A DNA stretch of 64,000 nt from an uncultured Pseudomonadota bacterium (GCA_963836235.1 CAWIIP010000004.1:96001-160000), one strand, 5' to 3'. Numbered from the stretch's first letter, positions 37,914 to 50,793 are shown. The notes: generated from the letters alone by a model not told the origin. Made by a program: numbers and translations.

Positions 37914-37927
37914 GAATAGGGAAATTA

Positions 37928-38740
37928 ATGGAATCAACCATGGAAATATCCGAATTGGAAGCCAGTCATCTAACCTGGATTCATTCAAATAAATTCACAA
38001 CGCCAGAGCTTTTCCACAAACGGTTTATCCATCCAAAAACCTACCGTCAGGCCTGTTCAATTTTAAGGGACCAATATCTTGAAAAAGGGTTAGTCGGATT
38101 AACGAAAGCTGAGTCCACCACCTTTCAGGATTCGATGTATTTCCTCTCTACGAAAGCCATAAAGATTTTGGACGAAAAGGAAAAAATATTAGTAAAAAGC
38201 ACAAATTATCCCGTGAGGATTAACCCTTACGAAAGGCAGCACGACCTTGAGGTCCAAGCCATAAGGATAGCCTTTGAGAAAAATGTTCAACTCGGAAGGA
38301 TTTTTTGGCTTTCGGATTTCGAAATGAGGGGTGGTATCACCCAGGGCGTGAAAAAAGCCTTTTTGTCCGGTGATTTGGATAAGGAGGAATGGCGTTCTAA
38401 TTGGGTTAATACCCAGATAAGGGGGAGGAGAACCCCGGACGGGTATTTTGAAACGGATTTGGATGGAAAAAGGTACGGGTTCACTTTGGAGTATGAGCAT
38501 GTCCAAAACCCCGAGGCCAAGATCGGCAGGATGATTGAATACTTAAAAGATTCCTTTCCCAATGTTTTAAGGCTTGTTGTATCTGCGGATAAGAAAAATG
38601 CCACGAGGATGATGAATATCCTTCGGGGCAAGGTCAGGGAAAGCGAATGGGACCGTTGGTTTGTCTCATATTTCGAGAGGGCAACGACTTTGCCTTTTAA
38701 AAAAATATGGCACCAGCTAAACCAACCTATCAAGGGATAA
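37928..38740 (+). CDS. Replication-relaxation (Replic_Relax)-like protein
   Basis: N-terminal wHTH-like region, HDLEV, PDG.F...LEYE PD-(D/E)XK-like motif; adjacent to T4CP. Confidence 0.6.
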   Translation: MESTMEISELEASHLTWIHSNKFTTPELFHKRFIHPKTYRQACSILRDQYLEKGLVGLTKAESTTFQDSMYFLSTKAIKILDEKEKILVKSTNYPVRINPYERQHDLEVQAIRIAFEKNVQLGRIFWLSDFEMRGGITQGVKKAFLSGDLDKEEWRSNWVNTQIRGRRTPDGYFETDLDGKRYGFTLEYEHVQNPEAKIGRMIEYLKDSFPNVLRLVVSADKKNATRMMNILRGKVRESEWDRWFVSYFERATTLPFKKIWHQLNQPIKG

Positions 38741-38762
38741 AAACGGCATATATCGCGCTGGC

Positions 38763-38789
38763 TTGACATTGAGTCGCTTATAAGCGACT
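38763..38789 (+). promoter_or_regulatory. TA promoter with perfect 18-bp palindromic operator
   Basis: TTGACA (38763) then AGTCGCTTA-TAAGCGACT (38772-38789). Confidence 0.75.
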
Positions 38790-38807
38790 ATTGAGAAAGG
38801 AACCGTT

Positions 38808-39167
38808 TTGATGGAGCAAAACCCTTGGGCGATAGAACACTATGAAACACGGTCGGGAGTCAAACCCTTTGAGGTCTGGTTTGACCATCAAAGGAAAAGT
38901 GACCCCGTTACAGCGGCCTTAGTTGGCAAAAGAATTTCCCGATTGAGGTTTGGACATTTGGGAGATTACGACAACGTTGGAGATGGGGTTCTCGAACTTA
39001 GGAATTTCCACGGGCCAGGATACCGGATATATACCGGGAGAATTGGGGCCACCATGTACCTTCTTCTTGTGGGAGGAAGCAAGGGAAACCAGAACTCGGA
39101 CATTAAGCTGGCACGGGAATACTTTCGGGAATTTAAGGGAAGAAAGAAGAAGGAAGGTTCAAAATGA
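38808..39167 (+). CDS. RelE/HigB-like addiction module toxin (HI1419 type)
   Basis: PF..W, RI.RL..G..GD...VG.GV.ELR...GPGYRIY, GGSK..Q..DI. Confidence 0.88.
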   Translation: MMEQNPWAIEHYETRSGVKPFEVWFDHQRKSDPVTAALVGKRISRLRFGHLGDYDNVGDGVLELRNFHGPGYRIYTGRIGATMYLLLVGGSKGNQNSDIKLAREYFREFKGRKKKEGSK

Positions 39168-39499
39168 AAAAGAACGCCGCTACAACGGACCACGACGATT
39201 TTATCGTCGGACAGTTAAAAAAGGACCCACGGTTTCTTGAAGCTTACCTAAATGAAGCCCTAAGTGACGAAAACGAGGACCCCCGCGTCGTTCTGGATAT
39301 GCTTCGTAAAGTCGCTGAGGCCAGTGGTGGGGTTAGAAAGTTGGCCCAGGCCGCAGACCTCAACCGGCAGAACCTTTATAAGGCCCTTTCCGCAGAGAAG
39401 GGAAACCCTGAATTTTTCACCATCAATAAGATCGTTAACGCCCTTGGTTTTCATTTCAAGCTTGTCAAAAACAAAAGACGACTGGCGATGGCGAAGTAA
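39164..39499 (+). CDS. HTH addiction module antidote (HI1420 type)
   Basis: YLNEAL, G...LA....NRQNLYKALS..GNP.F.T. Confidence 0.88.
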   Translation: MKKNAATTDHDDFIVGQLKKDPRFLEAYLNEALSDENEDPRVVLDMLRKVAEASGGVRKLAQAADLNRQNLYKALSAEKGNPEFFTINKIVNALGFHFKLVKNKRRLAMAK

Positions 39500-39625: not shown

Positions 39626-39655
39626 GTGTCCACGATTGGGACCCGCATTGGACAG
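39626..39655 (+). repeat. Palindromic cassette-boundary site S1 (degenerate)
   Basis: GTGTCCACGATTGG-GA-CCCGCATTGGACAG. Confidence 0.8.
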
Positions 39656-39723
39656 GATAATTTTAATGATCGAGCCGTTTCTAAAGAGTTGAAATCAAGG
39701 TTGGATATTGAAAGAATCCTTTC

Positions 39724-40497
39724 ATGACCACCCGAATCCTTAAACCCTGGCCCGTTCTGGCGGACGTCATCGCTTCCATTGATCTTCATGACACCGCAAC
39801 CACTGGCGAAGGTCCCGCCTATTCGGTTTTGCCCTCCCCCCAATTTGTCATGGGGTTTCAATTGCAAGGCCGTTTGAAAACGCTTCGTCCTGGGACCGAA
39901 ACAACCCTTACTCCCAGCGGCGTTACCGGACTCCAGGGGCAAAGCCGTCTTTATCAAGGGGTCGGTAAGACCCGGTCCATCCTGGTGCGGTTCAAACCAT
40001 GGGGGCCTTCCTGCTTTTTACCGGGGCCCATGGGCGAGCTGATGAACGAAAGTGTGGATTTGCGCCAGTTGTGGGACCCGCAAGAAGTCAGCGACCTCGA
40101 AGATAAGCTTTATCACTCTACGCCCGGACCGGCGGTGGTCCTCTTGCAAACTTTTCTGGTCAAGTGCCGCCGGTTTCAAACCATCGATCCTCTGGCGCTC
40201 AACGCCGCCCAACGGTTCATCCTCAAAGCGGGTAATGTTTTGATCGGACGCATGGCCGGGGAACTGGCCACCACCGAACGTTCCCTCGAAAGACGGTTCC
40301 AGCAATGGATCGGCACCAGCCCCAAACGGTTCGCGGCCCTGCTGCGCTTCCAGAAAAGCATCCAAATGCTTCAGGCGGGAAAGGATGGAACCGAAGTGGC
40401 CTATGAATGCGGCTATTTCGACCAGGCTCATTTCATCCAGGAATTCAAGAATTTTACCGGTGTTTCACCCCAAAAATACAAAATCGGGCTGCTTTAA
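39724..40497 (+). CDS. AraC-family transcriptional regulator
   Basis: C-terminal double HTH (LERRF...G.SPK, GYFDQAHFI.EFK.FTG.SP). Confidence 0.9.
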   Translation: MTTRILKPWPVLADVIASIDLHDTATTGEGPAYSVLPSPQFVMGFQLQGRLKTLRPGTETTLTPSGVTGLQGQSRLYQGVGKTRSILVRFKPWGPSCFLPGPMGELMNESVDLRQLWDPQEVSDLEDKLYHSTPGPAVVLLQTFLVKCRRFQTIDPLALNAAQRFILKAGNVLIGRMAGELATTERSLERRFQQWIGTSPKRFAALLRFQKSIQMLQAGKDGTEVAYECGYFDQAHFIQEFKNFTGVSPQKYKIGLL

Positions 40498-40582
40498 GAT
40501 TGTCGGATTTTTCCAATAGGTTTTTTTCACTCTTTCCTAAAATTATTCAAGTTGGTTTATTACATCAAACAGGAGGACGTCA

Positions 40583-41245
40583 ATGAAAACGGAACAAAGG
40601 GCAGAGGTTTTGATTAATGTACACAAGGGGCTCCGCCGGGGGCTGTTGGGCCTGGCCCTCAAGCTGGGAGCCCTGGACTGGCAGGATCAGGAAGAGGTCA
40701 AGGCGGCCGGGGCGGATTTCGCCACCATGCTTCACTTTTTAAGGGAACACGCGGCCAACGAGGATCAGATCCAATTTCCTCTGCTGGAAAACAAGGTGTC
40801 CGGGGCCGCCCGCCGGGAAATGGAAGAACACCATCGCCTGGATGCACAGATCGACGATTTGGAAAAACAATGGGTGAGGCTGGCTGTGGAAGAGGACAAA
40901 TCCAAGCCGGGTTACGCCTTCTATCTGGCCTATAACCGGTTCCTTTCGGATTATCTGGCCCACATGGACCACGAAGAGACGGATCTGACCGACGCCCTTT
41001 ATCAAAATTTCACCGACGCTGAAATCGAGGCGGAGTTCAAAAAAATCATCGCCCGCACCCAGCCCGCGGACATGGGCATGATGCTGGGCTATATGATCCC
41101 GGGGATGAATCCGGGGGAGAGGGCCCAGTTCCTTTCCAAGCTTCAAAAGACCGCGCCGGCGCCGGTTTTTGAGAAAGTGAAAGGATTGGCCCAAAAGGTT
41201 CTGTCTTCCGGCGATTGGGAAAAGCTATCAGCACGGTTAGGATAA
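40583..41245 (+). CDS. Hemerythrin-like domain protein
   Basis: HKGLR, H...ED, EH, H...EE ligand pattern. Confidence 0.8.
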   Translation: MKTEQRAEVLINVHKGLRRGLLGLALKLGALDWQDQEEVKAAGADFATMLHFLREHAANEDQIQFPLLENKVSGAARREMEEHHRLDAQIDDLEKQWVRLAVEEDKSKPGYAFYLAYNRFLSDYLAHMDHEETDLTDALYQNFTDAEIEAEFKKIIARTQPADMGMMLGYMIPGMNPGERAQFLSKLQKTAPAPVFEKVKGLAQKVLSSGDWEKLSARLG

Positions 41246-41272
41246 CCGTGATGGTGAAAACCGCTACTAATG

Positions 41273-41302
41273 TTGTCCACGACGGGGACCCATCGTGGAC
41301 AA
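41273..41302 (+). repeat. Palindromic cassette-boundary site S2
   Basis: TTGTCCACGACGGG-GA-CCCATCGTGGACAA. Confidence 0.95.
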
Positions 41303-41346
41303 AGTGATAACCATTTACCGATCAAAAAAACTAGGTTATCTGAAGC

Positions 41347-41694
41347 TCAAGCGTTCTTGTAATCGGTGAGGGCCCAAACCGCCAAAATCACGATCCCGCA
41401 AGTAACATAAAAACCAAGGACCGCTGGTACGGAGGAAAGTCCTAGGACAAAGGGCAGGGCGATGAGGCAGGGCCCGACCACTAATTCGATATAGCCGTGT
41501 ATTTTAAAAGGTATTACCTTCACCAGACCCATGGGAAAGTTCGTCAAGAACGTGAGGGCGAAGTGCACTCCCGCCAGGGAGTAGGAAATGACTGCCGGTA
41601 TCCCTGAAAAATGGAGAAGGGAGGGGGCGGCCAAGAAAACCAAAACAACCACGTAATCCAAATAACCATGAATCTTTGAGTTGATTATTTTCAT
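41347..41694 (-). CDS. Small membrane protein (SPW-repeat-like)
   Basis: Duplicated K.HGY.(D/E) TM module, ends ALTDY. Confidence 0.65.
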   Translation of the reverse strand: MKIINSKIHGYLDYVVVLVFLAAPSLLHFSGIPAVISYSLAGVHFALTFLTNFPMGLVKVIPFKIHGYIELVVGPCLIALPFVLGLSSVPAVLGFYVTCGIVILAVWALTDYKNA

Positions 41695-42338
41695 TTCAAA
41701 GCATCCTTTGCCGCCTTCATTAAATCTTCCGGGTTGACTCTTATTTTAATATCCGCGTTGAAATAAACGAAATGAATAAGACCCTTGGTGTCCACCACAA
41801 AGGCCGCTGGAACGGGCAATTCGTGGAGGGAATTCCCCGTGGCTTTGTCCAGATCGTGGCCGTAACTTTTCATCATCCCCAGCGTTTTCTCATCCAGGCG
41901 ATAGGCCAGGCCGAATTGACGGGTCAACTCCATGGTCCGGTCGGAAAGCAGGATATAGTTGATCCCGTGTTTCTCCAGGCTTTCCTTCAGGCTTTCGGGT
42001 TTGTCCGGCGTAATCGCCAAGACTTGATAACCCATTTTCATCAAATCAGGTTCGATCTTCACCAATTGGCCCATTTGCAAGTTGCAATAGGGACACCATC
42101 CCCCCCGGTAAAAAATAAGGATACTGGGCTTTTGGGAAATAAGGGTTTTGAGGGCCACCTTTTTTCCATCAAGGGTCGTCAGCTCCCCGTTGGGAATGCT
42201 TTGCCCCTTTTTGAGGGGTTGGACATCCTGCGGATTATCGTAAATCGGTTTTTTCATGGAATCGGCCCGAGCCATTTCAACCATTCCCAAACCTCCTCCA
42301 AAAAGAACCGTCAGGATGAGCGCCCATCGCTTTAACAT
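41691..42338 (-). CDS. Secreted AhpC/TSA peroxiredoxin-like protein
   Basis: Signal peptide; FYRGGWCPYCN, LPVPA.FVVD. Confidence 0.85.
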   Translation of the reverse strand: MLKRWALILTVLFGGGLGMVEMARADSMKKPIYDNPQDVQPLKKGQSIPNGELTTLDGKKVALKTLISQKPSILIFYRGGWCPYCNLQMGQLVKIEPDLMKMGYQVLAITPDKPESLKESLEKHGINYILLSDRTMELTRQFGLAYRLDEKTLGMMKSYGHDLDKATGNSLHELPVPAAFVVDTKGLIHFVYFNADIKIRVNPEDLMKAAKDALK

Positions 42339-42471
42339 TCACCACCTCCGTGATTTTTAGTTTCCCGATGATTTGAAGGGATGAATACCTGGCCCTAGTT
42401 ATGAGGGCAAATACGTTCATCTGGTATGAAAAGTTACTTCCCTTGACCAAAACAAAGGTAAAGTATTGGCC

Positions 42472-42501
42472 TTGTCCACGACGGGGACCCGTCGTGGACA
42501 G
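42472..42501 (+). repeat. Palindromic cassette-boundary site S3
   Basis: TTGTCCACGACGGG-GA-CCCGTCGTGGACAG. Confidence 0.95.
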
Positions 42502-42539
42502 GCAAACCGACGGTTGAATCGGCCCCAATTTCGGTGTAT

Positions 42540-42553
42540 TCTTACTGGTAAGA
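42540..42553. promoter_or_regulatory. Probable antitoxin operator
   Basis: TCTTAC-TG-GTAAGA palindrome just upstream of the AbrB-type gene. Confidence 0.55.
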
Positions 42554-42570
42554 TTACTGGGAGGTAACCT

Positions 42571-42831
42571 ATGACAGTAGCGACCACAAAGCTTTCCTCG
42601 AAGGGGCAGGTAGTTATTCCTGAATCCATCCGCAAGAGCCTGCATCTCAAAGAAGGAGACCAATTCGTCGTCGTCGGCCAGGGGGATTCGGTGATCTTCA
42701 AAGCCATCACCCCGCCTTCCCTGAATCAACTTGACGGCTTACTGGCGACGGCGCGAAAGCAGGCGCGTGAAGCCAGCTTGCGCCCATCGGATATAAAGAC
42801 CGCGATTGCCCGGGTCCGGCGCGGTAAATGA
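42571..42831 (+). CDS. AbrB/MazE/SpoVT-family antitoxin
   Basis: SSKGQVVIP..IR..L.L..GD. Confidence 0.9.
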   Translation: MTVATTKLSSKGQVVIPESIRKSLHLKEGDQFVVVGQGDSVIFKAITPPSLNQLDGLLATARKQAREASLRPSDIKTAIARVRRGK

Positions 42832-43229
42832 AAAGGATTGTTGTAATCGACACAAATGTTCTTGTGTCAGGAATCTTCTGGAAAGGGACACCTTACCAAG
42901 TAATTAAATCTTGGGAACGGGGCGACTTCAAGTTGTTGGCATCCCCGGAAATCTTTGATGAATACCGCCGTGTCTTCGCCGACCTTGCCAAACGGCATCC
43001 CGGCGTCGAGGTTGGGGCCATCCTTGAAATTATCGAATTGAATTGCGAATTGGTGAATGCCAAACCTGTCCACGGTGTTTGTAAAGACCCAGATGATGAT
43101 AAGTTCATAGCAGTGGCATTGGCAGGTGGCGCTGAGTTTATTGTCTCAGGCGACAAGGCATTGTTGGATGTTGGGGTTCATCAAAATGTTAAAATCATGA
43201 ATCCGTCCAATTTTCTGAAAAACCTATAA
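42828..43229 (+). CDS. PIN-domain toxin (VapC-like)
   Basis: VIDTNVLVS, DPDDDKF, IVSGDK.LL; overlaps antitoxin stop. Confidence 0.9.
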   Translation: MKRIVVIDTNVLVSGIFWKGTPYQVIKSWERGDFKLLASPEIFDEYRRVFADLAKRHPGVEVGAILEIIELNCELVNAKPVHGVCKDPDDDKFIAVALAGGAEFIVSGDKALLDVGVHQNVKIMNPSNFLKNL

Positions 43230-43234
43230 TTGGG

Positions 43235-43264
43235 TTGTCCACGACGGGGACCCGTCGTGGACAG
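43235..43264 (+). repeat. Palindromic cassette-boundary site S4
   Basis: TTGTCCACGACGGG-GA-CCCGTCGTGGACAG, 5 nt after the PIN stop. Confidence 0.95.
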
Positions 43265-43300
43265 GCTAAATTGAAAAGTATGTTTATAGATGAGGCTTAA

Positions 43301-43978
43301 ATGAAGCGAAAATTAATCATGATACTTTTTTTATCATGCTCACAATTATGGGCAATTACACCCACGGCATCCCCTGGGCCCGACCCATCTGATGTCGAGG
43401 TAGTGAAGGATATTGATAATCCGAATAAAACCATTACAGCCGATTTTAAAGAAATTTTTATTAAGGCGAGCCATCAACCAACAAATATGGTTTGGCCCTA
43501 TTATCTAGACTTGGAAGGAAGGGGTCGGGACGAAGTCATAGTTTTTGGGGGTAGCAAACTTTTAGTTTTGAATCCAAATACTTTAAAAGTCGTTTTTGTA
43601 TTAAAAAACGATTTTAAAATTGATTTCGATACTGACGATAATATTCATTTTGGCCGAATTATTCAAAAAGGGCCCTATTGTTTTTGGTTTGAAAAAATCA
43701 CAAAAGTTCCAATGGCTGAAAATATGGTTCTTATGTCTTATGACTGGTCCTATGAGTGGTTTTTTTATTCTTTCATAGATGGCCAATGGAAAAGAGTTTT
43801 TTGCCAGAAATTTATAGGGCAGGATGACCACTACGGTGATGATCCCAACAATGAGGTGGATTTAAAGGATGGTAATTTAAGATGTGTAGATGTAACGGCA
43901 AGATGGGATAAAAAGTATAATTGCTTTGTTAAAATAGCTAAAACCAAGTTTAAGGCCCACACTGGTACCGGAAATTGA
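43301..43978 (+). CDS. Hypothetical secreted protein (AT-rich cassette)
   Basis: 225 aa ORF with signal peptide filling S4-S5. Confidence 0.7.
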   Translation: MKRKLIMILFLSCSQLWAITPTASPGPDPSDVEVVKDIDNPNKTITADFKEIFIKASHQPTNMVWPYYLDLEGRGRDEVIVFGGSKLLVLNPNTLKVVFVLKNDFKIDFDTDDNIHFGRIIQKGPYCFWFEKITKVPMAENMVLMSYDWSYEWFFYSFIDGQWKRVFCQKFIGQDDHYGDDPNNEVDLKDGNLRCVDVTARWDKKYNCFVKIAKTKFKAHTGTGN

Positions 43979-43997
43979 ATTTGAGACACATTAGATG

Positions 43998-44027
43998 ATG
44001 TCCACGATGGGGACCCGTCGTGGACAG
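43998..44027 (+). repeat. Palindromic cassette-boundary site S5
   Basis: ATGTCCACGATGGG-GA-CCCGTCGTGGACAG. Confidence 0.95.
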
Positions 44028-44036
44028 GGGACACCA

Positions 44037-44066
44037 TTGCATTGTAACTACATTGTAGTGTATACT
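44037..44066 (+). promoter_or_regulatory. brnTA promoter with palindromic operator
   Basis: TTGCAT-18-TATACT; ACTACA-T-TGTAGT (44047-44059) in the spacer. Confidence 0.65.
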
Positions 44067-44072
44067 TAAGCC

Positions 44073-44345
44073 ATGCTCGTCATTTGGGATCCCCAGAAAG
44101 CTATTTCCAATCTAAGAAAGCACGGGGTCTCATTTGAAGAGGCCCAATCCGTCTTGGAATCCGACGTTCAGTTGGTGCTGGAAGACAGGGGACACCACGA
44201 AGAAAGATTCGTCGCGCTTGGGTATTCGAAGAAACTAAACCTATTGGTGGTGGTTTACGCGTATCGGGAGATCGATGTTATTCGGATCATCTCGGCCCGT
44301 AAGGCCATACGAAAGGAAAGGGAAAACTATGAAAAAAGAATATGA
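44073..44345 (+). CDS. brnT: BrnT-family toxin
   Basis: WD..K...N..KHG.SF, EERF, IRIISARKA. Confidence 0.9.
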   Translation: MLVIWDPQKAISNLRKHGVSFEEAQSVLESDVQLVLEDRGHHEERFVALGYSKKLNLLVVVYAYREIDVIRIISARKAIRKERENYEKRI

Positions 44346-44586
44346 TTTTTCAAAAGCTAAGGTTCATAAAGGCCCTCTGTTGGCTTCCAAGGGCTCTAAA
44401 ATTCAGAAAACTTTCCGGTTGGATGAGTCTGTTTACCTTTGGCTCATCGAGGAAGGCAAAAAACTAGGAATCCCCTATCAAACCCTCATGAACTCGATTT
44501 TGAAGCGTTCGATGTCCGATAACTCAACCCTCGAAGAACGCGTCCGAAAAATCGAACATAAATTAGGCCTGAAAAAGACAGGCTGA
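44329..44586 (+). CDS. brnA: BrnA-family antitoxin
   Basis: MKKEYDFSK, RLD..V..W, GIPYQTLMN..L. Confidence 0.88.
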   Translation: MKKEYDFSKAKVHKGPLLASKGSKIQKTFRLDESVYLWLIEEGKKLGIPYQTLMNSILKRSMSDNSTLEERVRKIEHKLGLKKTG

Positions 44587-44623
44587 TTTCCTCGAACAAA
44601 TCGGTTTTGTGAACTCGAAAACT

Positions 44624-44653
44624 CTGTCCACGGCGGGGACCCGTCGTGGACAC
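44624..44653 (+). repeat. Palindromic cassette-boundary site S6
   Basis: CTGTCCACGGCGGG-GA-CCCGTCGTGGACAC. Confidence 0.95.
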
Positions 44654-44701
44654 TTAAATTAAAAATGTGCTTTTAATCGAATGGGCGGGAGGAATTCTTA
44701 A

Positions 44702-45235
44702 GTGCGGCATTTTCTTTCGATGGTTTTGATTTTTGTGTTAGCGCCGATAGTGTGGGCAGACGAGGGTACCCCGGTCCCCACCCCAACCCACCCCCCTATC
44801 ACAACCCATTGGACGACCCTGGGAGGAATGCAATATTTACAAAATAACAAGGCGTTATCCGGGCCTGAGTTGAAAGATCTTATTAACTCCATCGACGATC
44901 AACAAGCCACCGCACTTCTGAATAAATCTGAATCGGATGAAACGCTAGGATTTTTTGGATTGGGTGGTTCGGTAATCCTGTCGGTTGGGTCTTTATTCTT
45001 CCCGAATACGCATATCTACATATTTGGCCTGGATATTTCCACTCCTTATATGCCTATCGCCGTTCCGGGGGCGGTTTTAGGCGTCGCGGGCGGGCTCCTT
45101 GAACTCGAAGCCAATACCGCCAAATACGCCTCTGTCCAACGCTATAACCACGTTACTAAACAATCGGATTCAATTACTTGGAACCTCACTCCCCAAAAAG
45201 ACGGTTTGGGCTTAAGTTTAGGTTATAGCTTTTGA
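44702..45235 (+). CDS. Hypothetical secreted/membrane protein
   Basis: Signal peptide, TPTH linker, C-terminal GLSLGYSF strand. Confidence 0.65.
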   Translation: MRHFLSMVLIFVLAPIVWADEGTPVPTPTHPPITTHWTTLGGMQYLQNNKALSGPELKDLINSIDDQQATALLNKSESDETLGFFGLGGSVILSVGSLFFPNTHIYIFGLDISTPYMPIAVPGAVLGVAGGLLELEANTAKYASVQRYNHVTKQSDSITWNLTPQKDGLGLSLGYSF

Positions 45236-45267
45236 ATACCAGATCAAATTGGGATTGAAAGAGTTCT

Positions 45268-46530
45268 ATGGTTAAGAAGGGCTTTACACAAAAACGTTCC
45301 CGGCGGGTTACCCTGAAAAAAACCTCTTTTCTCTATCTGTCTTTATTTGTAATGACAATGCTCTCCCTCGGATTCCTTTTTCAGGGTTGCACTTTACTTT
45401 TTGTGTCAAAAGGCGAAACACGGTACGTCGAAAATAAGACGCCTCAAACTCCCCCAGCGCCGTCACTCTCCCGTCAAATGAATAAAACGGTTGTTTTAAA
45501 ATACAAAGTTCAGGAAGGGGATACCTTCCAGTCCATTGCCGCCATTTACTATGGCGTGACTTCAAAAGCATCCAAGGTGGCATCCGCAAACCATTTGAGC
45601 CTGAAATCGAAGTTGAAAGAAGGAAAGGTCTTGAGGATCGTGGACCCGGTTAATTTCCCGAACCCCAAGGAATTGGTGAAGAAGAAACCGACAGCCCAGA
45701 CTACGACTGAAACCCCGAAACCCGGCCCTATATCCCACCTAGATACCACGCCGGAAAACATCACCCAAGTACCCCGTCCTAAAAAGAACTACGCCTTTGG
45801 GCCCGGAGAAAAGCTTACCTTTGAAGTAAAAGCTCTTTCCATGGTGGGGGGATACGGGACATTGGAGATTGGGAATCCGGTCACTGTCCAAGACCGTCCT
45901 TGTTATCCACTGTCCGCCAAAGCCACGGCGGCTTTTCCTTTCAGCATGGTTTACCAGGTACATGATGTGCAAACGAGTTATTTTGATGTGGTGGACTTCC
46001 TGACCTGGAAATTCGAGAACGACGTTCTGGAAGGCAAGCACAAGGCCCAGAACTTGGAAATCTATGACCAGGTCAAACACAAGGTCGTACGGTCCAAGGG
46101 AAATGAGCCTCCTGAGGAAATAGACATAGCCCCCTTCACCCAGGACATTATTTCCTGCTTTTTCTACTTCCGCCTTCTGCCTCTCGAAGTCGGGAAGAAC
46201 TATTCCATTCCCGCTCAGGCCGCAGGCTACAACTATAACTTGATCGTGGAGGTCATCAAAAAAGAACGAATTACCATACCTTCCGGTACTTATGATTGTC
46301 TGTTAGTGAAACCCCATGTCCGGTACGCGACGGTTTTTCGCAACACGGACGATATCAATATTTGGCTTACCGATGACCAAAGGCATTTGCCGGTATTGGT
46401 CACCAGCAAAATATTTATCGGAAATGTTGAGGCGACCCTTATCGAGGCTAACCTGCCAAAAGTGAAAGAACCTGAGAAAAAGCCCGAACCAAGAATCCAA
46501 ACCCATAAGCGCAAAAAGGAGGAAGAATGA
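45268..46530 (+). CDS. LysM + DUF3108-like protein
   Basis: YKVQEGDT..SIA..YYG LysM; GEKL.F.V, E.ITIPSG.YDC, IWL.DD.R..PV. Confidence 0.75.
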   Translation: MVKKGFTQKRSRRVTLKKTSFLYLSLFVMTMLSLGFLFQGCTLLFVSKGETRYVENKTPQTPPAPSLSRQMNKTVVLKYKVQEGDTFQSIAAIYYGVTSKASKVASANHLSLKSKLKEGKVLRIVDPVNFPNPKELVKKKPTAQTTTETPKPGPISHLDTTPENITQVPRPKKNYAFGPGEKLTFEVKALSMVGGYGTLEIGNPVTVQDRPCYPLSAKATAAFPFSMVYQVHDVQTSYFDVVDFLTWKFENDVLEGKHKAQNLEIYDQVKHKVVRSKGNEPPEEIDIAPFTQDIISCFFYFRLLPLEVGKNYSIPAQAAGYNYNLIVEVIKKERITIPSGTYDCLLVKPHVRYATVFRNTDDINIWLTDDQRHLPVLVTSKIFIGNVEATLIEANLPKVKEPEKKPEPRIQTHKRKKEEE

Positions 46531-47012
46531 ACGATCCTCAGGAAATTAATCGAACTTTTAACCGTCCATTTTCGAAAGCGGCCTTTCTTCTCCTGCTTTT
46601 GCTCTTACTTCCAACTCCAAAAGCCTATTGCCGTAACGAAGCCGTAACCATCCCGCTTATCGCGGCGGATTATTATGGATGGGCCTATACCGAAGCCTTC
46701 ATGGATAAGTCCTATGTTTACGGCTGGTCCACGGCAGGCGTGGACACCTTGGGGTGGACGATCCTTCTGACACGGAAGGAATATTCGGGTTTGTTTTTCG
46801 TCAATGTGGCGGGCATCGCCAAAACCGTGTATCCGGTGGTACAGCTTTTAGCTTCGTCGGACTCGGATACCCGAAGCCGGGCGTGGATTGCCTTGGGTAC
46901 CCATACCGCGACGCTGATAAGCCTGGAACTTTTAGGCAAACCGGCTTTGAGCATTCAAACCATGGTTCCTAAAAATGGGGGCTATGGGGCGTCGTTGGCT
47001 TTTCGGTTTTAA
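46527..47012 (+). CDS. Hypothetical secreted/membrane protein
   Basis: Signal-like hydrophobic stretch; C-terminal aromatic strand; overlaps upstream stop. Confidence 0.6.
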   Translation: MNDPQEINRTFNRPFSKAAFLLLLLLLLPTPKAYCRNEAVTIPLIAADYYGWAYTEAFMDKSYVYGWSTAGVDTLGWTILLTRKEYSGLFFVNVAGIAKTVYPVVQLLASSDSDTRSRAWIALGTHTATLISLELLGKPALSIQTMVPKNGGYGASLAFRF

Positions 47013-47039
47013 AATAACACCAAATAATAAGAGGGAAAA

Positions 47040-47414
47040 ATGGACGATTTGATTCTGTATTTAGGTGCTTTCCTGATTGGGTCTATTCCGTTCGGATTTT
47101 TGTTGGCAATGACGTTCAAGAAAATCGACTTGAGGAAAAAGGGGACCGGCGATGTCGGCGTGACCAATGCCTGGAAGGTAGCGGGTACCCCATTGGGCCT
47201 GTTGACGCTAGTTTTGGATATTTTAAAAGGTGGCACGGCAATTTTCCTGGCCCATGGACTTTCCCCCAAAGACCAGCCGGATTGGGTTCTGGCCGGTTTC
47301 CTAGCCTTGCTTGCCGATGAATTTCCCGTTTTCTTAAAGTTCAAGGGCGGTAGAGGGATCGGAACAAGCATAGGCGTTTTTGCGTCGCTTCTTTACTGGA
47401 TGTTGAGTAAGTAA
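47040..47414 (+). CDS. Short PlsY-like glycerol-3-phosphate acyltransferase (truncated/degenerate)
   Basis: GSIPFG, DLR..G.G..G.TNA, D.LKG, FKGG.G; 124 aa; His of the GH.FP motif replaced (ADEFP). Confidence 0.7.
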   Translation: MDDLILYLGAFLIGSIPFGFLLAMTFKKIDLRKKGTGDVGVTNAWKVAGTPLGLLTLVLDILKGGTAIFLAHGLSPKDQPDWVLAGFLALLADEFPVFLKFKGGRGIGTSIGVFASLLYWMLSK

Positions 47415-47456
47415 AGGATCCAGCATTTTATAAACTCGTTGAAATGGTGAAAACCC

Positions 47457-47486
47457 CTGTCCACGACGGGGACCAGCCGTGGACAA
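47457..47486 (+). repeat. Palindromic cassette-boundary site S7
   Basis: CTGTCCACGACGGG-GA-CCAGCCGTGGACAA. Confidence 0.92.
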
Positions 47487-47523
47487 CCTCGTCCAGGCTT
47501 TTTGAACCTCACAGTGGTATGAG

Positions 47524-48300
47524 TCAGTTTTTGAAAATGCTCCAAATGTGATTAAGGAATTTTTTTGGTTTTGGCCCTGTTTCATTTTTTTGAACATCCG
47601 GCTTGGCAAGATCAAAGAGAAGAATTTCGGTGGGCATTTGGGCCGTAAATGAAACGGAAATTTCATCGGATAAACCGGCACCATCCCCTGTTTGAAGTTT
47701 TAGATCATTCATTAGAATTTGACCGCTCACCACATGAAGCCATCCGTTTCGGTCCGGGCCAAGCTCATGAATTACATGATTGCCCTTTTGAATGAGCGTG
47801 GAGTACATCCGAACGTCCTTTTGTATTTTGAGCGATTCCTTTTCCCCCTCGGGAGAGGCGATGAGTTTCAAAATCCCCTTCCGTTCTGCGTGAGTAAAGT
47901 GTTTTTTTCTATTGCCCGGTTTCGACACAAACATGCTTGGGATAAACCCGCTTTGGAAGACATGTGCGTCATCGGTTAGCAAAGTGTCGAACCCATACTC
48001 TTTTATGACGGAAGCGAGATTGATCTGATGGATTTCCCCGGATTCAAGCAACCCGGACGTTCCCAATGGGCCATCATAGATAATTAAGCCTTCCTTAACA
48101 TAAGCTACGATCACTGCATTCTCATGGGTGCTTAGTATGAATCCCGTACCTGGGGAAAGTATTTCTTCGTTGAATATTTTGAGTCCGCCAAACCCATTTT
48201 GTAGGGAATCGGTATTATTTTCCCAGTCGAAGGTTCTCCAGGTGTTTCGAACATTGTCCGCAATATGACGACGTTCTTCCGACTTCCGCACGTTAATCAT
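47524..48300 (-). CDS. Pirin-like bicupin (YhhW/YhaK type)
   Basis: GFG.L...NEE, SLKIQ.DV, R.GWLHVV.G, GDGA, EILLFDL. Confidence 0.8.
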   Translation of the reverse strand: MINVRKSEERRHIADNVRNTWRTFDWENNTDSLQNGFGGLKIFNEEILSPGTGFILSTHENAVIVAYVKEGLIIYDGPLGTSGLLESGEIHQINLASVIKEYGFDTLLTDDAHVFQSGFIPSMFVSKPGNRKKHFTHAERKGILKLIASPEGEKESLKIQKDVRMYSTLIQKGNHVIHELGPDRNGWLHVVSGQILMNDLKLQTGDGAGLSDEISVSFTAQMPTEILLFDLAKPDVQKNETGPKPKKFLNHIWSIFKN

Positions 48301-48580
48301 TTTTTTGATTTCGTAATCGTTATTGGACGTTCAGCGAAGTCTAGTATGAGTCGGTTTAAAAAAGTTCGGGGGGGGGCGAAATTTTAGATAGAACTCTCAT
48401 GGGAGATTCTCCGAAGCGGTGGATTGTGTGCGAAAAAATTGATGTTTAAAATATACCCTGGTTTGAAAATTAAACCTGCCGAATTCGAAACTATTTAATA
48501 TTCAAGATTCTCCCACTGGCAGATTTATCAAAATGAGAGCCATGAAAAAGGAAAAAATGGTTAAATTTAGGAGTTGAGGG

Positions 48581-48610
48581 TTGTCCACGACGGGGACCCG
48601 TCGTGGACAG
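48581..48610 (+). repeat. Palindromic cassette-boundary site S8
   Basis: TTGTCCACGACGGG-GA-CCCGTCGTGGACAG. Confidence 0.95.
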
Positions 48611-48650
48611 GGCGAAACCATAAAAAGTCGTTCCATTGGAGGTGAATTTA

Positions 48651-49085
48651 ATGGCTATTGATACCAGTGGCAAGTTCTGGAAAGGTCAAAACACCGACGA
48701 CTTGATCGAATATATCCGTCTTCTCACAAAAGAGGGATATCCCACCAGTAAACATGTCGTCGCTAAATGTACCTGCGGAAAACAACACTTCCAACTTACC
48801 GCTGACCAAGATGAAGGATGCGCCAAACGCATTTGTACTTCCTGCGGGAAAGAAACGTTTATTTGCGATAGTGAAGAAGCGTGGCAGGACTCCTCCTCGA
48901 AGAAATTAAAGTGTAAATGCAAAACGGACATTTTTGAGATCGTTGTTGGCTTTTCCCTGAGAGACGATGGTGAGATAAAATGGGTTAACGTCGGTCAACG
49001 ATGTGTTAATTGCGGAATACTTGGGTCGTATGTTAATTGGGGTATTGATTATGCTCCAACGAAACAACTTTATACGATGGTATGA
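48651..49085 (+). CDS. Hypothetical Cys-rich (double zinc-ribbon-like) protein
   Basis: CTCG, CTSCG, CKC, CVNCG; GGAGGTG RBS. Confidence 0.75.
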   Translation: MAIDTSGKFWKGQNTDDLIEYIRLLTKEGYPTSKHVVAKCTCGKQHFQLTADQDEGCAKRICTSCGKETFICDSEEAWQDSSSKKLKCKCKTDIFEIVVGFSLRDDGEIKWVNVGQRCVNCGILGSYVNWGIDYAPTKQLYTMV

Positions 49086-49086
49086 C

Positions 49087-49102
49087 TTGTCCACGACGGG
49101 GA
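49087..49102 (+). repeat. Half site S9 (left arm + central GA)
   Basis: TTGTCCACGACGGG-GA then GGCAAAG. Confidence 0.9.
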
Positions 49103-49115
49103 GGCAAAGTAAACA

Positions 49116-49403
49116 ATGTATTTTAAGTTTTTGAATAAGCCGATACCAAAACGTGTTTACATTGAAACTAAATGGCTAAGGAAATTAGTGGCTTGGTATC
49201 TTATAGTTCACACGTTAATAGGGTATTTAATATTCTGGAAAATTTTTCCCCGGTATCATGCAGATGGTTCACTGAACCCTTGGTATTTTGTTTTTTTGCC
49301 CGTGATGTTGTTATGCGTTCTTATAACTTTTGTTATCTTTTATTGCTTTGTGGGTTATGTGGAAAAGTTTTTCCTTAAAAAGCCAAAAAATATAAAAAGA
49401 TGA
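49116..49403 (+). CDS. Hypothetical two-TM membrane protein (AT-rich cassette)
   Basis: 95 aa ORF filling S9-S10. Confidence 0.6.
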   Translation: MYFKFLNKPIPKRVYIETKWLRKLVAWYLIVHTLIGYLIFWKIFPRYHADGSLNPWYFVFLPVMLLCVLITFVIFYCFVGYVEKFFLKKPKNIKR

Positions 49404-49408
49404 TTAGA

Positions 49409-49438
49409 TTGTCCACGACGGGGACCCATCGTGGACAG
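49409..49438 (+). repeat. Palindromic cassette-boundary site S10
   Basis: TTGTCCACGACGGG-GA-CCCATCGTGGACAG. Confidence 0.95.
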
Positions 49439-49481
49439 GGAAAAGGCTTTAGAAGGCTTTTCGATATGAGGAGTAAAATTA

Positions 49482-49811
49482 ATGAGCGATGAAGAGATTT
49501 TTGAAAGCGCCATCAATCAAAACGGGGATTTGGGCGCTGTATTCGAACGGGCGGACGGCACTTGTTACTTTTACTTATGCAAAATAAAAGATGGAAAACC
49601 AGATGGGGTAATGGACACGATTCATGTCACCTCAAAAAAACCTGATTTTGGTCAAAAGGATATTGAAGTGAAGTGGAATCACTCAGGGGAAAAGGTTGGT
49701 TTCTTAGTGAAGGGGAAACTCGTTGCATTTTTTGACACGAAAACGAAAAGCAAACATGGAGAGAATATGACTCCGATTATTCCGGAGATCGTCGAAAGCT
49801 TCGGGGTTTAG
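49482..49811 (+). CDS. DUF2251-like hypothetical protein
   Basis: VFE..DGT.YFY and W...G.K.G......A.FD pattern; GAGGAG RBS. Confidence 0.6.
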   Translation: MSDEEIFESAINQNGDLGAVFERADGTCYFYLCKIKDGKPDGVMDTIHVTSKKPDFGQKDIEVKWNHSGEKVGFLVKGKLVAFFDTKTKSKHGENMTPIIPEIVESFGV

Positions 49812-49832
49812 AAAGCAAACAATAATTTGAGG

Positions 49833-49862
49833 TTGTCCACGATGGGGAGCCGTATTGGACGG
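49833..49862 (+). repeat. Palindromic cassette-boundary site S11 (degenerate right arm)
   Basis: TTGTCCACGATGGG-GA-GCCGTATTGGACGG. Confidence 0.88.
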
Positions 49863-49964
49863 TTAAATGATTAGTAGGCTTATTCAATAAGGGGAGGCGT
49901 TTATGAAATGGTGGATGAAAGGCCATTTTAATGGCGTTGAATTCATGTGGTGTGAGGTTCACAA

Positions 49965-50627
49965 ATGTTTCTGAATAGAGAAAAATATAAATGGTCTTTT
50001 GTTGGGATCGTTATAGGTTTTTTAATAGCGGGATGTTTTTGTAATGGTTTATTGTTTCATGAATGGAAAGATGTTATGGCGGCGTTGATTGGAGCTGCAG
50101 TTGGCGGTGGAGTTACATGGCTTACTACCAGAGAATTAATAGATCAACAAATTAAACTTGAAAAAGTGAAAAGCGAATTAATACAAATTCACTTCATTAA
50201 AGCCGTGAAAACAGAAATTAAAATTCTAAAAGATATTTATATGCAAATGGTTGGTAACGAAACTGAAAAACTTAAAGTTGGAGAACCTTTGAACCTTACG
50301 TGGTCAAATCACCAAGATTATTTTACGATTTATCAAGGCAACAGCAGTTTTATAGGTGGGGTGACAGATGATGCCTTGCGGGAATTGATTGTGGCCACAT
50401 ATGCGAAGGCGAAGGGGTTGTTGGATTCATACAGTCACAATAACGAATTGGTTGAAAGACTAGATTATTTAGCTAAAGAAAGTCGCACAGGATTTGGTAT
50501 GAAGCCGACGGTTACCGCAGAACAGTACAAAGATCATTTAACAATGATGGTTAAATATGCCGAAGGTATCAAAGGTTCGCATCAAGACTTTTTAAAAAAC
50601 GTAAATGAGTTATTGGCGAAAATCTAA
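49965..50627 (+). CDS. Hypothetical membrane-anchored helical protein
   Basis: Two N-terminal TMs (ALIGAAVGGGVT), helical C-terminus; AT-rich. Confidence 0.7.
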   Translation: MFLNREKYKWSFVGIVIGFLIAGCFCNGLLFHEWKDVMAALIGAAVGGGVTWLTTRELIDQQIKLEKVKSELIQIHFIKAVKTEIKILKDIYMQMVGNETEKLKVGEPLNLTWSNHQDYFTIYQGNSSFIGGVTDDALRELIVATYAKAKGLLDSYSHNNELVERLDYLAKESRTGFGMKPTVTAEQYKDHLTMMVKYAEGIKGSHQDFLKNVNELLAKI

Positions 50628-50640
50628 AAGGGGGTCTTGG

Positions 50641-50656
50641 TTGTCCACGACGGGGA
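50641..50656 (+). repeat. Half site S12 (left arm + central GA)
   Basis: TTGTCCACGACGGG-GA then GGCGTCC. Confidence 0.9.
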
Positions 50657-50793
50657 GGCGTCCTTCTTAATTGCAATCCCAAGACCTGGCCCCATTTTTT
50701 CAGACCCAATTTTCCATAATCGTACGAGATGGTCAACACGGTTAGTCTCATTTCCATTCTAACGTCCTTAGGACTTTCAACCGTTTTTAAATA

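What the first reader, a model, noticed from the sequence alone, without database searches (positions are those of the whole stretch)
39626..49862. Compensatory substitutions split between neighbouring sites record crossover at the palindrome centre
Seen (site numbered 1-30, position i pairs with 31-i): S6 has G10 in its left arm and S7 has the complementary C21 in its right arm, so removing the S6-S7 block restores a G10:C21 pair and releases a circle with a fully paired core site. S10 has A20 (right) and S11 has T11 (left), so the cassette between them circularises to a T11:A20 palindrome. S1-left T11 (or S5-left T11) likewise complements S2-right A20. Mismatches within individual sites are thus resolved by re-pairing half-sites across cassettes. 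Inference: half-sites travel with cassettes and strand exchange lies between positions 11 and 20. This argues for site-specific recombination rather than terminators or REPs.
Basis: partly seen in the sequence, partly recalled or inferred. Interest (0 to 1): 0.85.

Follow-up and report, generated by a model that had tools for sequence, protein, structure and literature searches.

The report
Mobile gene cassettes bounded by 28-bp sites
A soil bacterium of the uncultured phylum FCPU426 stores small accessory genes as swappable cassettes separated by a 28-base repeat, much as integrons do but without the integron enzyme; the mutation pattern first used to argue this is no better than chance.

Summary
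The claimed cross-site "compensation" is not above chance: 3 adjacent matches against 1.55 expected in the window (P=0.15). Over 450 unique adjacent pairs from 11 genomes and 120 metagenome contigs, P is 0.03-0.13 uncorrected. In a palindrome, T11/A20 and G10/C21 are the same half-site change at the most mutable arm positions.

The conclusion still holds on other evidence:
- The 28-bp site TGTCCACGAC-GGGGACCC-nnnnTGGACA bounds compact, mostly one-gene cassettes. Median unit is 843 bp, the longest ORF is co-oriented in 284 of 301 units, and the site starts a median 16 nt after the stop.
- Adjacent sites are direct repeats, 301 to 6.
- One 1273-bp site-cassette-site unit is identical in two arrays of this genome, with unrelated flanks.
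- In pairs of sites that share only one flank, the left arm follows the upstream flank. The core and right arm follow the downstream flank.

No integron integrase exists in 31 family genomes. The recombinase is unproven. The lead candidate is a 278-aa serine recombinase abutting terminal sites, followed by the single Xer-like recombinase.

The parts
39627..39654 (+). S1, first site of the array (5 mismatches to the consensus; left T10, T11; right arm GCATTGGACA)
41274..41301 (+). S2 (right-arm A19)
42473..42500 (+). S3, consensus TGTCCACGACGGGGACCCGTCGTGGACA
43236..43263 (+). S4, consensus
43999..44026 (+). S5 (left T10)
44625..44652 (+). S6 (left G9)
47458..47485 (+). S7 (A18, C20). The same variant site with a 100% identical downstream flank occurs in relative G018 (L054:6393).
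48582..48609 (+). S8, consensus
49088..49115 (+). S9, degenerate site: intact left arm, core GGGGAGGC, decayed right arm. Its GGAGG lies about 10 nt before the ATG at 49116.
49410..49437 (+). S10 (right-arm A19)
49834..49861 (+). S11 (left T10; G16; right arm GTATTGGACG)
50642..50659 (+). Left-half-only site that ends the array (TGTCCACGACGGGGAGGC followed by non-site DNA)
39655..41273 (+). Cassette 1: AraC-family regulator (39724-40497) and hemerythrin-domain protein (40583-41245)
41302..42472 (-). Cassette 2, genes reversed relative to the sites: SPW-repeat protein (41347-41694) and AhpC/TSA peroxiredoxin (41691-42338)
42501..43235 (+). Cassette 3: MazE/AbrB-type antitoxin (42571-42831) and PIN-domain toxin (42828-43229)
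43264..43998 (+). Cassette 4: 225-aa protein with no Pfam family (43301-43978)
44027..44624 (+). Cassette 5: BrnT toxin (44073-44345) and BrnA-like antitoxin (44275-44586)
44653..47457 (+). Cassette 6 (four ORFs): 177 aa; LysM+DUF3108 (45268-46530); 161 aa; PlsY-like G3P acyltransferase fragment (47040-47414)
47486..48581 (-). Cassette 7, reversed: pirin/quercetinase-like protein (47524-48300). The block from S6 to S8 occurs as one contig in 2 of the 4 peat or moss metagenome runs laid and is covered in pieces in the other 2.
48610..50641 (+). Cassettes 8-11: ORFs of 149 aa, 95 aa, DUF2251 (49482-49811) and 220 aa (49965-50627)
35762..39499 (+). Left context of the array: tRNA-Thr (35762-35837), TraG/TraD-like coupling protein (36072-37913), 270-aa ORF (weak MobC-like match), and a RelE/ParE-type toxin with an HI1420-type antidote (38808-39499). 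This is the start of an integrative element.

Best explanation
WHAT IT IS. The 28-bp sites (30 bp with the flanking Y/R pair) are the recombination sites of an integron-like gene-cassette system in a family of the candidate phylum FCPU426. Each cassette is [core GGGGACCC + variable right arm] - short leader - usually one ORF - [left arm TGTCCACGAC].

HOW IT WORKS. Cassettes are excised and inserted by conservative exchange within the site. As a result each site in an array is a chimera: its left arm comes from the cassette upstream, and its core and right arm come from the cassette downstream.

SHOWN.
- Array and cassette anatomy.
- Identical cassettes in different arrays.
- No conserved neighbour order.
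- Each half-site segregates with its own flank.
- Absence of an integron integrase.

INFERRED.
- A dedicated site-specific recombinase does the exchange.
- The exchange point is at, or just right of, the border between left arm and core (10|11).

WHICH ENZYME (my estimates).
- About 0.4: a 278-aa serine recombinase (Resolvase + Recombinase domains). Its 3' end abuts the last site of an array in several genera.
- About 0.2: the single-copy Xer-like tyrosine recombinase present in 30 of 31 family genomes. A 10-8-10 site with exchange at the arm/core border fits a tyrosine enzyme better.

The complementary substitutions in neighbouring sites are chance coincidences of common half-site variants.
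For: ANATOMY.
- 399 sites in G000 plus 70 loci of 10 relatives. Positions 1-8, 11-18 and 23-28 are >=90% conserved; positions 19-22 are 60-75% conserved.
- 301 inter-site units: median 843 bp, longest ORF co-oriented with the site in 284 of 301, stop-to-site distance median 16 nt.
- Adjacent sites are direct in 301 cases and inverted in 6.
- Cargo is TA pairs and small accessory genes.

MOBILITY.
- The 1273-bp unit C4:57529-58801 equals C2:1195352-1196624 (reverse complement) with 0 mismatches, and the flanks outside both sites are unrelated.
- Among 389 usable genome sites, 21 pairs share only the upstream flank, 23 share only the downstream flank, and 0 share both.
- The congeneric G001 has the same upstream genes, a TraG-like gene and three small ORFs, followed by an array that shares only the sites.
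- The block 44625-48599 is covered at about 99.7% identity in four metagenome runs, as one contig in two of them. The sequence beyond both ends differs between runs.

JUNCTION.
- Regional linkage figures and the maximum-likelihood junction after position 10. The log-likelihood drop is 2.4-2.5 for junctions 11-12, 4.8 for 14, 8.4 for 18, and >=6 for <=9.
- Rare-variant sharing, left arm: 5/24 in upstream-only pairs against 0.034 at random (P=0.001). Right arm: 19/54 in downstream-only pairs against 0.091 at random (P=1.4e-7), and 4/61 in upstream-only pairs.

DISTRIBUTION.
- The 18-mer (<=1 mismatch) occurs in 20 of 24 other genomes of the family, 1 of 1 in a second family, and 0 of 15 genomes of eight other families of the phylum.

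RECOMBINASES.
- No IntI above cut-off in any of 31 genomes.
- The ser278-type 3' end has a convergent site 18-50 nt away in 9 of 12 distinct loci.
- No site lies within the fetched DNA (about 1.5 kb on each side of the match) of 8 loci holding other serine recombinases, most of them full-length large ones.
- The neighbouring cassettes differ from locus to locus.
- The same gene-end flank follows 8 of 650 unique sites, including in G005, G021 and G012, which lack an intact gene.
- The Xer-like gene is single-copy in 30 of 31 genomes.
Against: - No circle junction or empty site was seen. The joints have sides of <=31 nt and are repeat artefacts.
- No recombinase is shown to act on the site.
- Intact ser278 is found in only 5 of 31 genomes. 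No Resolvase-domain match was found in the site-rich G005, G010, G021 and G023.
- A serine recombinase should exchange at the dyad centre (14|15), which the junction fit disfavours.
- The Xer-like gene is also present in the four family genomes that lack the site.
- Linkage of the left arm to the upstream flank is imperfect: 7 of 21 pairs differ, mostly at positions 6-10.
- Two downstream-only pairs with identical flanks differ at all of positions 19-22.
- Some pairs share members (triads), so the counts are not fully independent.
- All data are MAGs and metagenome contigs.
Confidence: 0.75

Rival explanations
1. One reading: substitutions in neighbouring sites are compensatory partners separated by cassette insertion, so re-pairing half-sites across cassettes restores palindromes and records a crossover at the palindrome centre.
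For: - The named substitutions exist.
- There is a small excess of cross-site matches in every data set: 40 against 33.7 and 45 against 34.2 in 450 pairs.
- Half-sites do segregate with cassettes.
Against: - P=0.15 in the window. P=0.20 and 0.075 with within-genome shuffles. P=0.03-0.13 uncorrected across six tests.
- No selection for pairing is visible. Within-site complementarity is depleted, and 70% of right arms do not match the consensus left arm at positions 19-22 (119 GTCG of 399).
- The variants concerned are common: T10 is in 15.7% of left arms and its mirror is in 23.8% of right arms.
- The dyad centre is 4.8 log-likelihood units worse than 10|11 as the junction.
Confidence: 0.1
2. 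There is no dedicated recombinase. The 28-bp repeats serve another purpose (protein binding or an RNA/ssDNA hairpin), and cassettes are shuffled by RecA-type or illegitimate recombination between the repeats.
For: - The identical 18-mer (positions 1-18) offers short homology.
- No recombinase is co-distributed with the sites.
- Left-arm linkage to the upstream flank is leaky.
- With >=80% flank pairs the junction signal blurs.
Against: - Crossovers spread over positions 1-18 would link left-arm variants partly to the downstream flank and core variants partly to the upstream flank. Instead, downstream-only pairs differ in positions 1-10 at the random rate (13/20 against 0.67). Upstream-only pairs differ in positions 11-18 near the random rate (6/21 against 0.35). 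Downstream-only pairs never differ in 11-18 (0/20).
- Neighbour order is lost even where flanks are 100% identical, which implies frequent exchange.
- No alternative function is supported.
Confidence: 0.12
3. The sites are true, very short attC sites, and the arrays are CALINs of a classical integron whose IntI is missing from these assemblies.
For: - Cassette anatomy, direct orientation, TA cargo and a site-specific group II intron all parallel integrons.
- Passages of PMC4889954, PMC3001079 and PMC5371416 were read.
Against: - No IntI in any of 31 genomes, 17 of them >=90% complete.
- The site is 28-30 bp with a near-invariant sequence. It lacks R/L boxes, an unpaired spacer or a variable loop.
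- The junction lies near the middle of the site, whereas in integrons it lies at one end. The integron crossover position is recalled, not read here.
Confidence: 0.03

Closest known systems
Integrons (IntI, attI, attC cassette arrays; CALINs)
   Same: - Arrays of compact, mostly single-ORF cassettes, each followed at once by a recombination site.
- All sites are direct repeats.
- Sites are chimeras of two cassettes.
- Cargo is rich in toxin-antitoxin pairs.
- Many arrays have no recombinase nearby.
- Array orientation is tied to replication direction (compare PMC5371416, passages read).
- A group II intron is specialised on the site (compare PMC3001079, abstract and passages read).
   Different: - No IntI.
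- The site is a 28-30-bp sequence-conserved palindrome, not a 57-140-nt structure-conserved hairpin (the attC length range is recalled).
- The junction is near the middle of the site.
- There are 12 arrays in one genome.
- Where a recombinase gene abuts an array, it is a serine recombinase, at the downstream end and convergent with the cassettes.
- The intron lies in the same orientation as the cassettes. IIC-attC introns lie in the opposite orientation.
dif modules bounded by pdif (XerC/XerD) sites in Acinetobacter plasmids
   Same: - 28-bp sites made of two arms around a short conserved spacer.
- Small accessory modules, often TA pairs, shuffled between replicons.
- The recombinase acts in trans and is chromosomal.
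- Recombination needs identical spacers (PMC13141974, passages read). This matches the near-invariant core here.
   Different: - pdif sites alternate in orientation, so modules are flanked by inverted sites and move in pairs. Here the sites are direct (301 to 6).
- The host has one Xer-like gene, not a XerC+XerD pair.
- The host's dif site was not found, so likeness to dif is untested.
- The arrays are chromosomal and sit in integrative elements.
Crossover sites of serine recombinases (resolvase/invertase site I, hix; large serine integrase att sites next to the int gene)
   Same: - A roughly 28-bp inverted repeat with an asymmetric central dinucleotide (GA, 97% conserved) that would set polarity.
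- The outer TGTCC...GGACA resembles the TGTCY half-site motif of gamma-delta/Tn3 resolvase (recalled, not tested).
- A recombinase gene lies directly beside one site.
   Different: - The gene is a 278-aa form without the zinc-ribbon and coiled-coil part of large serine integrases.
- It is intact in only 5 of 31 genomes.
- The junction fit favours 10|11 over the central dinucleotide.
- Cassette arrays of this kind did not turn up for serine recombinases in my searches.

Membership tests
Integron | IntI-type tyrosine recombinase (TIGR02249, with the extra domain near patch III) | tested here: not met
   Best hit in G000 is 40.9 bits by six-frame genome search. The Xer-like protein itself scores 77.9 bits. 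The cut-off is 265 bits. 0 of 31 family genomes are over the cut-off.
Integron | attC: imperfect hairpin with R''/L''...L'/R' boxes, unpaired central spacer, extrahelical bases and a variable loop | tested here: not met
   The site is 28-30 bp with a fixed sequence and a 4-nt loop at most. There is no Rfam hit. IntegronFinder's attC model could not be run.
Integron | Directly repeated sites bounding promoterless ORF+site cassettes; each site is a chimera of two cassettes | tested here: met
CALIN (cluster of attC sites lacking an integron integrase) | At least two attC sites recognised by the attC model, with no intI nearby | not testable with these tools
   No attC covariance model is at hand. 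Definition taken from PMC4889954 (passages read).
Xer/dif modules | 28-bp site: two ~11-bp arms and a 6-bp spacer resembling the host's dif site | tested here: inconclusive
   The length and the arm-core-arm layout fit. The host dif site was not identified.
Xer/dif modules | XerC and XerD both present | tested here: not met
   One Xer-like gene in G000. It is single-copy in 30 of 31 genomes.
Xer/dif modules | Alternating C/D and D/C site orientation | tested here: not met
   301 direct against 6 inverted neighbours.
Serine-recombinase site | Cognate serine recombinase encoded beside a site | tested here: met
   9 of 12 distinct ser278-type 3' ends have a site 18-50 nt away. The Resolvase and Recombinase domains are intact in the G000 copy; the copies in G001, G022, G042 and G045 have open frames of 281-329 aa without internal stops.
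Serine-recombinase site | Exchange at the central 2-bp overlap on the dyad axis | tested here: inconclusive
   The maximum-likelihood junction is 10|11. Junction 14|15 is 4.8 log-likelihood units worse. This rests on about 3 core variants in upstream-only pairs and none in 20 downstream-only pairs.
Serine-recombinase site | Recombinase present wherever the sites are | tested here: not met
   Intact in 5 of 31 genomes. No Resolvase-domain match in G005, G010, G021 and G023. Only 3'-end remnants in G005, G021 and G012.
REP elements with a RAYT | Co-occurring Y1 (IS200-like) transposase; hairpins scattered through intergenic regions | tested here: not met
   The Y1 gene is not found in G018 (95 sites), G001 and G023. 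The sites are clustered in arrays.
Intrinsic terminator | G+C-rich hairpin followed by a T-run on the transcribed strand | tested here: not met
   None of the 11 sites is called. The downstream flank is A-rich.

The most novel reading that the evidence does not exclude
A family of the uncultured phylum FCPU426 carries a cassette-capture system that evolved independently of integrons. It has dozens of arrays and up to about 95 sites per genome. The 28-bp sites have an invariant 8-bp core. Exchange occurs at one arm/core border. The system is driven by a short (278-aa) serine recombinase sitting at a primary site at the array end, or else by the host's single Xer. It has acquired its own site-specific group II intron, in parallel with the IIC-attC introns of integrons.
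Probability: 0.45. Interest if true: 0.85.

Novelty: new variant of a known kind. Interest (0 to 1): 0.68.

Why it matters
Integrons are so far the only well-understood system in which bacteria store and reshuffle single promoterless genes at a dedicated site. Acinetobacter dif modules are a second, still debated, case.

A third system would show that cassette capture evolved more than once. This one sits in an uncultured soil and peat phylum, has a simple 28-bp site and has no integron integrase. It would also offer a very small recombination site for study.

The cassettes are mostly toxin-antitoxin pairs and small genes of unknown function. They are shared between genera at up to 100% identity in the flanking sequence compared, so they form a common mobile gene pool in peat communities.

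For the scan itself, the case is a useful warning. In a palindrome, 'complementary' substitutions in two half-sites are the same mutation seen twice, so they need a null model before they can be read as compensation.

Tried and rejected
- Rfam scan of 36000-53000 at E<=1: no match.
- Terminator scan: 16 terminator-like calls against 17.4 expected, none at a site.
- RAYT/REP idea: three Y1_Tnp genes of about 313-320 aa in G000. They are not near sites and are not found in G018, G001 and G023. Rejected.
- IS110-type (PF01548): none in G000. IS91-type (PF04986): none, but the control rang nowhere, so this is uninformative.
- The six paralogous integrases of about 368 aa belong to TraG-orf270-integrase modules. 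They occur in 26 of 31 genomes and correlate only loosely with site number. Only one of the 190 array loci fetched carries one.
- Clustering ORFs of >=120 aa around arrays gave PIN toxins and lipoproteins as the commonest families, and no recombinase.
- Search for the chromosomal dif site. The lone site at C1:236010 in the terminus region is not syntenic in relatives. The intergenic DNA beside the Xer-like gene holds only a terminator-like palindrome. dif was not identified.
- The other half of a split large serine recombinase was sought at the far end of the G000 array: none.
- The end of the window's own array (50642 onward) is not a ser278 remnant.
- Read laying: the 14 joints listed all have sides of 20-31 nt within the repeated site, so they are taken as repeat artefacts, not excision products. 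Parts of the array without cover in those runs say nothing.
- The 18-mer has no exact match in viral contigs.
- Literature: 'FCPU426' (134 papers, 15 listed); 'FCPU426'+'integron' (2 papers, both unrelated by title and abstract); integron-like/gene cassettes/palindrom/tyrosine recombinase; serine recombinase/gene cassettes/cassette array/attC; pdif/dif modules. No listed paper describes this site or system. Only listings and the passages named were read. Supplements are closed and were not seen.

Full report
THE OBSERVATION.

The region 39626-49862 holds eleven copies of an imperfect palindrome, all in the same orientation. A twelfth copy, left half only, lies at 50642. With up to three mismatches the 28-mer gives 15 matches counting both strands, against none in 100 shuffles.

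IS THE CROSS-SITE COMPLEMENTARITY MORE THAN CHANCE?

In a palindrome, 'T11 on the left' and 'A20 on the right' are the same half-site variant, and so are G10 and C21. The question is therefore whether equal variants sit in neighbouring half-sites more often than expected.

- In the window, 3 adjacent matches are seen against 1.55 expected (P=0.15).
- I then collected sites from the whole genome. G000 is 3.97 Mb in 5 contigs and has 67 sites with up to 6 mismatches, in 12 arrays.
- I added 70 array loci from ten relatives and 120 metagenome contigs.
- In 301 adjacent pairs the two kinds of cross-site match are 30 against 25.2+-4.6 and 35 against 26.8+-4.6.
- With shuffles confined to each genome, P=0.20 and 0.075.
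- In 450 unique pairs the counts are 40 against 33.7+-5.3 (P=0.13) and 45 against 34.2+-5.4 (P=0.033).
- These are six uncorrected tests with small excesses, so I do not count this as shown.
- Complementarity within a site is slightly depleted (37 against 48.3+-6.3), so pairing is not under selection at the variable positions.
- Those positions are the most mutable ones. Positions 9 and 10 are 85% and 79% conserved. The mirror tetranucleotide 19-22 is only 60-75% conserved, and GTCG makes up 119 of 399 sites.

WHAT THE THING IS.

Record titles of exact matches place the site in MAGs of candidate division FCPU426 from peat and soil. The 18-mer with up to one mismatch occurs in 20 of 24 other genomes of the same family, with up to 95 copies. 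It occurs once in a second family and in none of 15 genomes of eight other families of the phylum.

- Sites are clustered in arrays of 2-14.
- Neighbouring sites are direct repeats in 301 cases and inverted in 6.
- Inter-site units have a median of 843 bp (IQR 636-1588).
- The longest ORF points the same way as the site in 284 of 301 units.
- The next site begins a median 16 nt after the stop codon.
- The window's cassettes encode MazE/PIN and BrnT/BrnA pairs, an AraC regulator, a hemerythrin-domain protein, a peroxiredoxin, a pirin-like protein and several ORFs without a family. Two cassettes carry their genes reversed while the sites keep their orientation.
- The sites are not terminators. 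None is called, and the downstream flank is A-rich, not T-rich.
- They are not a conserved hairpin. Folding energy as single-stranded DNA runs from -14.9 to -4.0 kcal/mol, and S1 folds no better than its shuffles.
- No Rfam family matches.

CASSETTES MOVE, AND THE BREAK IS INSIDE THE SITE.

A 1273-bp unit, from the first base of one site to the last base of the next, is identical at C4:57529-58801 and, reverse-complemented, at C2:1195352-1196624. The DNA just outside both sites is unrelated.

Among 389 usable genome sites, 21 pairs share only their upstream 40 nt at >=80% identity, 23 share only their downstream 40 nt, and none shares both. The congeneric genome G001 has the same upstream genes (a TraG-like gene, orf270, orf119 and orf111), about 79% identical at the DNA level across the TraG-like gene. 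They are followed by an array that shares nothing with the window's array but the sites.

In Logan contigs of four runs from different studies, the block from S6 to S8 is covered at about 99.7% identity, as one contig in two runs and in pieces in the other two. It continues into different sequence at both ends.

After adding the metagenome contigs and collapsing loci that are the same on both sides, 21 upstream-only and 20 downstream-only pairs have >=95% flank identity. The number of pairs that differ somewhere in each part of the site is:

- Positions 1-10: 7/21 upstream-only, 13/20 downstream-only, random pairs 0.67.
- Positions 11-18: 6/21 upstream-only, 0/20 downstream-only, random pairs 0.35.
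- Positions 19-28: 17/21 upstream-only, 5/20 downstream-only, random pairs 0.91.

So the left arm goes with the cassette upstream, and the core and right arm go with the cassette downstream. A simple likelihood model puts the junction after position 10. The log-likelihood drops by 2.4-2.5 for junctions 11-12, 3.6 for 13, 4.8 for the dyad centre, 8.4 for 18, and 6 or more for 9 or less.

Caveats on the junction fit:
- The preference for 10|11 over 13-15 rests on three core differences in upstream-only pairs and none in downstream-only pairs.
- Some pairs share members.
- With looser flank thresholds the signal blurs.

Rare-variant sharing gives the same picture. It also argues against plain homologous recombination, which should scatter breakpoints over the 18 identical bases.

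WHICH ENZYME?

- No integron integrase exists in G000 or in any of 31 family genomes.
- G000 has eight tyrosine recombinases. Six are paralogues of about 368 aa that sit in TraG-orf270-integrase modules. One is a 425-aa phage-type integrase. One is a 353-aa Xer-like protein.
- G000 also has two serine recombinases, three Y1 transposases and no IS110-type gene.
- The Y1 gene and serine recombinases in general are missing from several site-rich genomes.
- The Xer-like gene is single-copy in 30 of 31 genomes. It is the only universal candidate, but it is also present in the genomes without sites.

One clear link did turn up. A 278-aa serine recombinase (Resolvase plus Recombinase domains) lies with its 3' end 18-50 nt from the last site of an array, convergent with the cassettes. 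This holds in G000, G022, G042 and G045, in decayed copies in G018, G046 and G042, and on a metagenome contig: 9 of 12 distinct loci. Eight loci holding other serine recombinases, most of them full-length large ones, have no site within the fetched DNA.

The right arm and core next to the gene are conserved together with the gene, while the left arm and the neighbouring cassette differ from locus to locus. That is the behaviour of a primary insertion site. The same gene-end flank follows 8 of 650 unique sites, including in G005, G021 and G012, which have no intact gene.

Against this candidate:
- Only five genomes have an intact copy.
- The gene's upstream context is not conserved.
- A serine enzyme should cut at 14/15.

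A 10-8-10 layout with an invariant 8-bp core and exchange at the arm/core border fits a tyrosine recombinase better. I leave the enzyme open, at about 0.4 for ser278 and about 0.2 for the Xer-like protein.

CONTEXT.

The window's array lies in an integrative element that begins after tRNA-Thr (35762-35837). It starts with a TraG/TraD-like gene and continues after the array with SRAP, UmuD/UmuC, ArdC, RadC, WYL, FtsZ-like and GmrSD genes. Other arrays are not near such modules. Site orientation follows the local GC skew in all G000 arrays.

COMPARISON AND NOVELTY.

The system works like an integron: direct sites, ORF-plus-site cassettes, chimeric sites, TA cargo, arrays without a recombinase nearby, and even a dedicated group II intron. 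It fails both defining tests for membership, IntI and attC.

It shares the 28-bp arm-core-arm site and a trans-acting host recombinase with Acinetobacter dif modules (PMC13141974, passages read). It differs in site orientation and in having a single Xer-like gene.

My literature searches found no description of it. I saw listings and named passages only; supplements are closed. I file it as a new variant of a known kind, namely site-specific cassette arrays.

VERDICT.

- The underlying system is well supported as a cassette system (0.75), and its recombinase is unidentified.

Noticed in passing
G000 C1:223031-225000 (L121:531-2490); G000 C2:1476544; L109 (G012:C4) sites at 1649 and 5557: A group II intron is inserted inside the 28-bp site between positions 19 and 20, in the same orientation as the site. 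Rfam matches are RF02005 and RF00029, and the RT ORF is 436 aa. The exon ends rejoin to a perfect ATCG-variant site. At least two copies occur in G000 and two in another genus. It parallels the IIC-attC introns of integrons, which lie in the opposite orientation.
   Followed up: partly
G000 C2:163827-164663 and loci L230, L266-L268, L271, L272, L278, L286: A 278-aa serine recombinase gene, or its 3' remnant, abuts the terminal site of arrays, usually across a small palindrome (TCAGTAnTACTGA). The G000, L230 and L266 (G022) copies have a different spacer. G042 has one intact copy and three 5'-truncated copies, three of the four beside a terminal site.
   Followed up: yes
site positions 19-22, all loci: The right-arm tetranucleotide is hypervariable: GTCG 119, ATCG 59, TTCG 31, GGAT 23, GGAG 20, GCAT 15 of 399. 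Two pairs with 100% identical downstream flanks differ at all four positions (L150:3299 against L105:2728 and L236:424). The cause is unexplained.
   Followed up: partly
G000, all contigs: Left-half-only sites are common in G000 (12) and right-half-only sites are rare (1). Several left halves close an array. The left arm plus core seems to be the part under constraint.
   Followed up: partly
G000 all contigs (window: + strand): Site orientation follows the sign of the local GC skew in every array: + on C4, - on C5, with switches on C1 and C2. The sites are therefore co-oriented with replication.
   Followed up: partly
window 35762-64000; G000 C4:196035-223140, C2:1182677-1186712, C5:269373-273407, C2:1371774-1374939, C2:506989-509655: G000 has six modules of a TraG-like coupling protein, orf270 (a weak MobC/relaxase-like match) and an integrase of about 368 aa (57-70% identical to one another). 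The window's copy lacks the integrase and starts at tRNA-Thr. A second, similar element follows on C4 with SRAP, UmuC and ArdC paralogues.
   Followed up: partly
G042 and G012: A Y1 (IS200-like) transposase of about 313-320 aa with a long C-terminal extension is highly multi-copy in some relatives: 18 matches in G042, several at 99-100% identity, and 17 in G012. It looks like an active element unrelated to the sites.
   Followed up: no
G018:C97:110447-112226, G015:C1, G023:C34, G012:C8, G043:C134: Runs of two or three adjacent Xer-like tyrosine recombinase genes, laid out like recombinase-trio elements, occur in several relatives but not in G000.
   Followed up: no
window 49088-49118 and 50642-50662; G000 C1:236010; L266: A core variant, GGGGAGGC, recurs. 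In S9 its GGAGG sits about 10 nt before the next start codon, so a decayed site may double as a ribosome-binding site.
   Followed up: no
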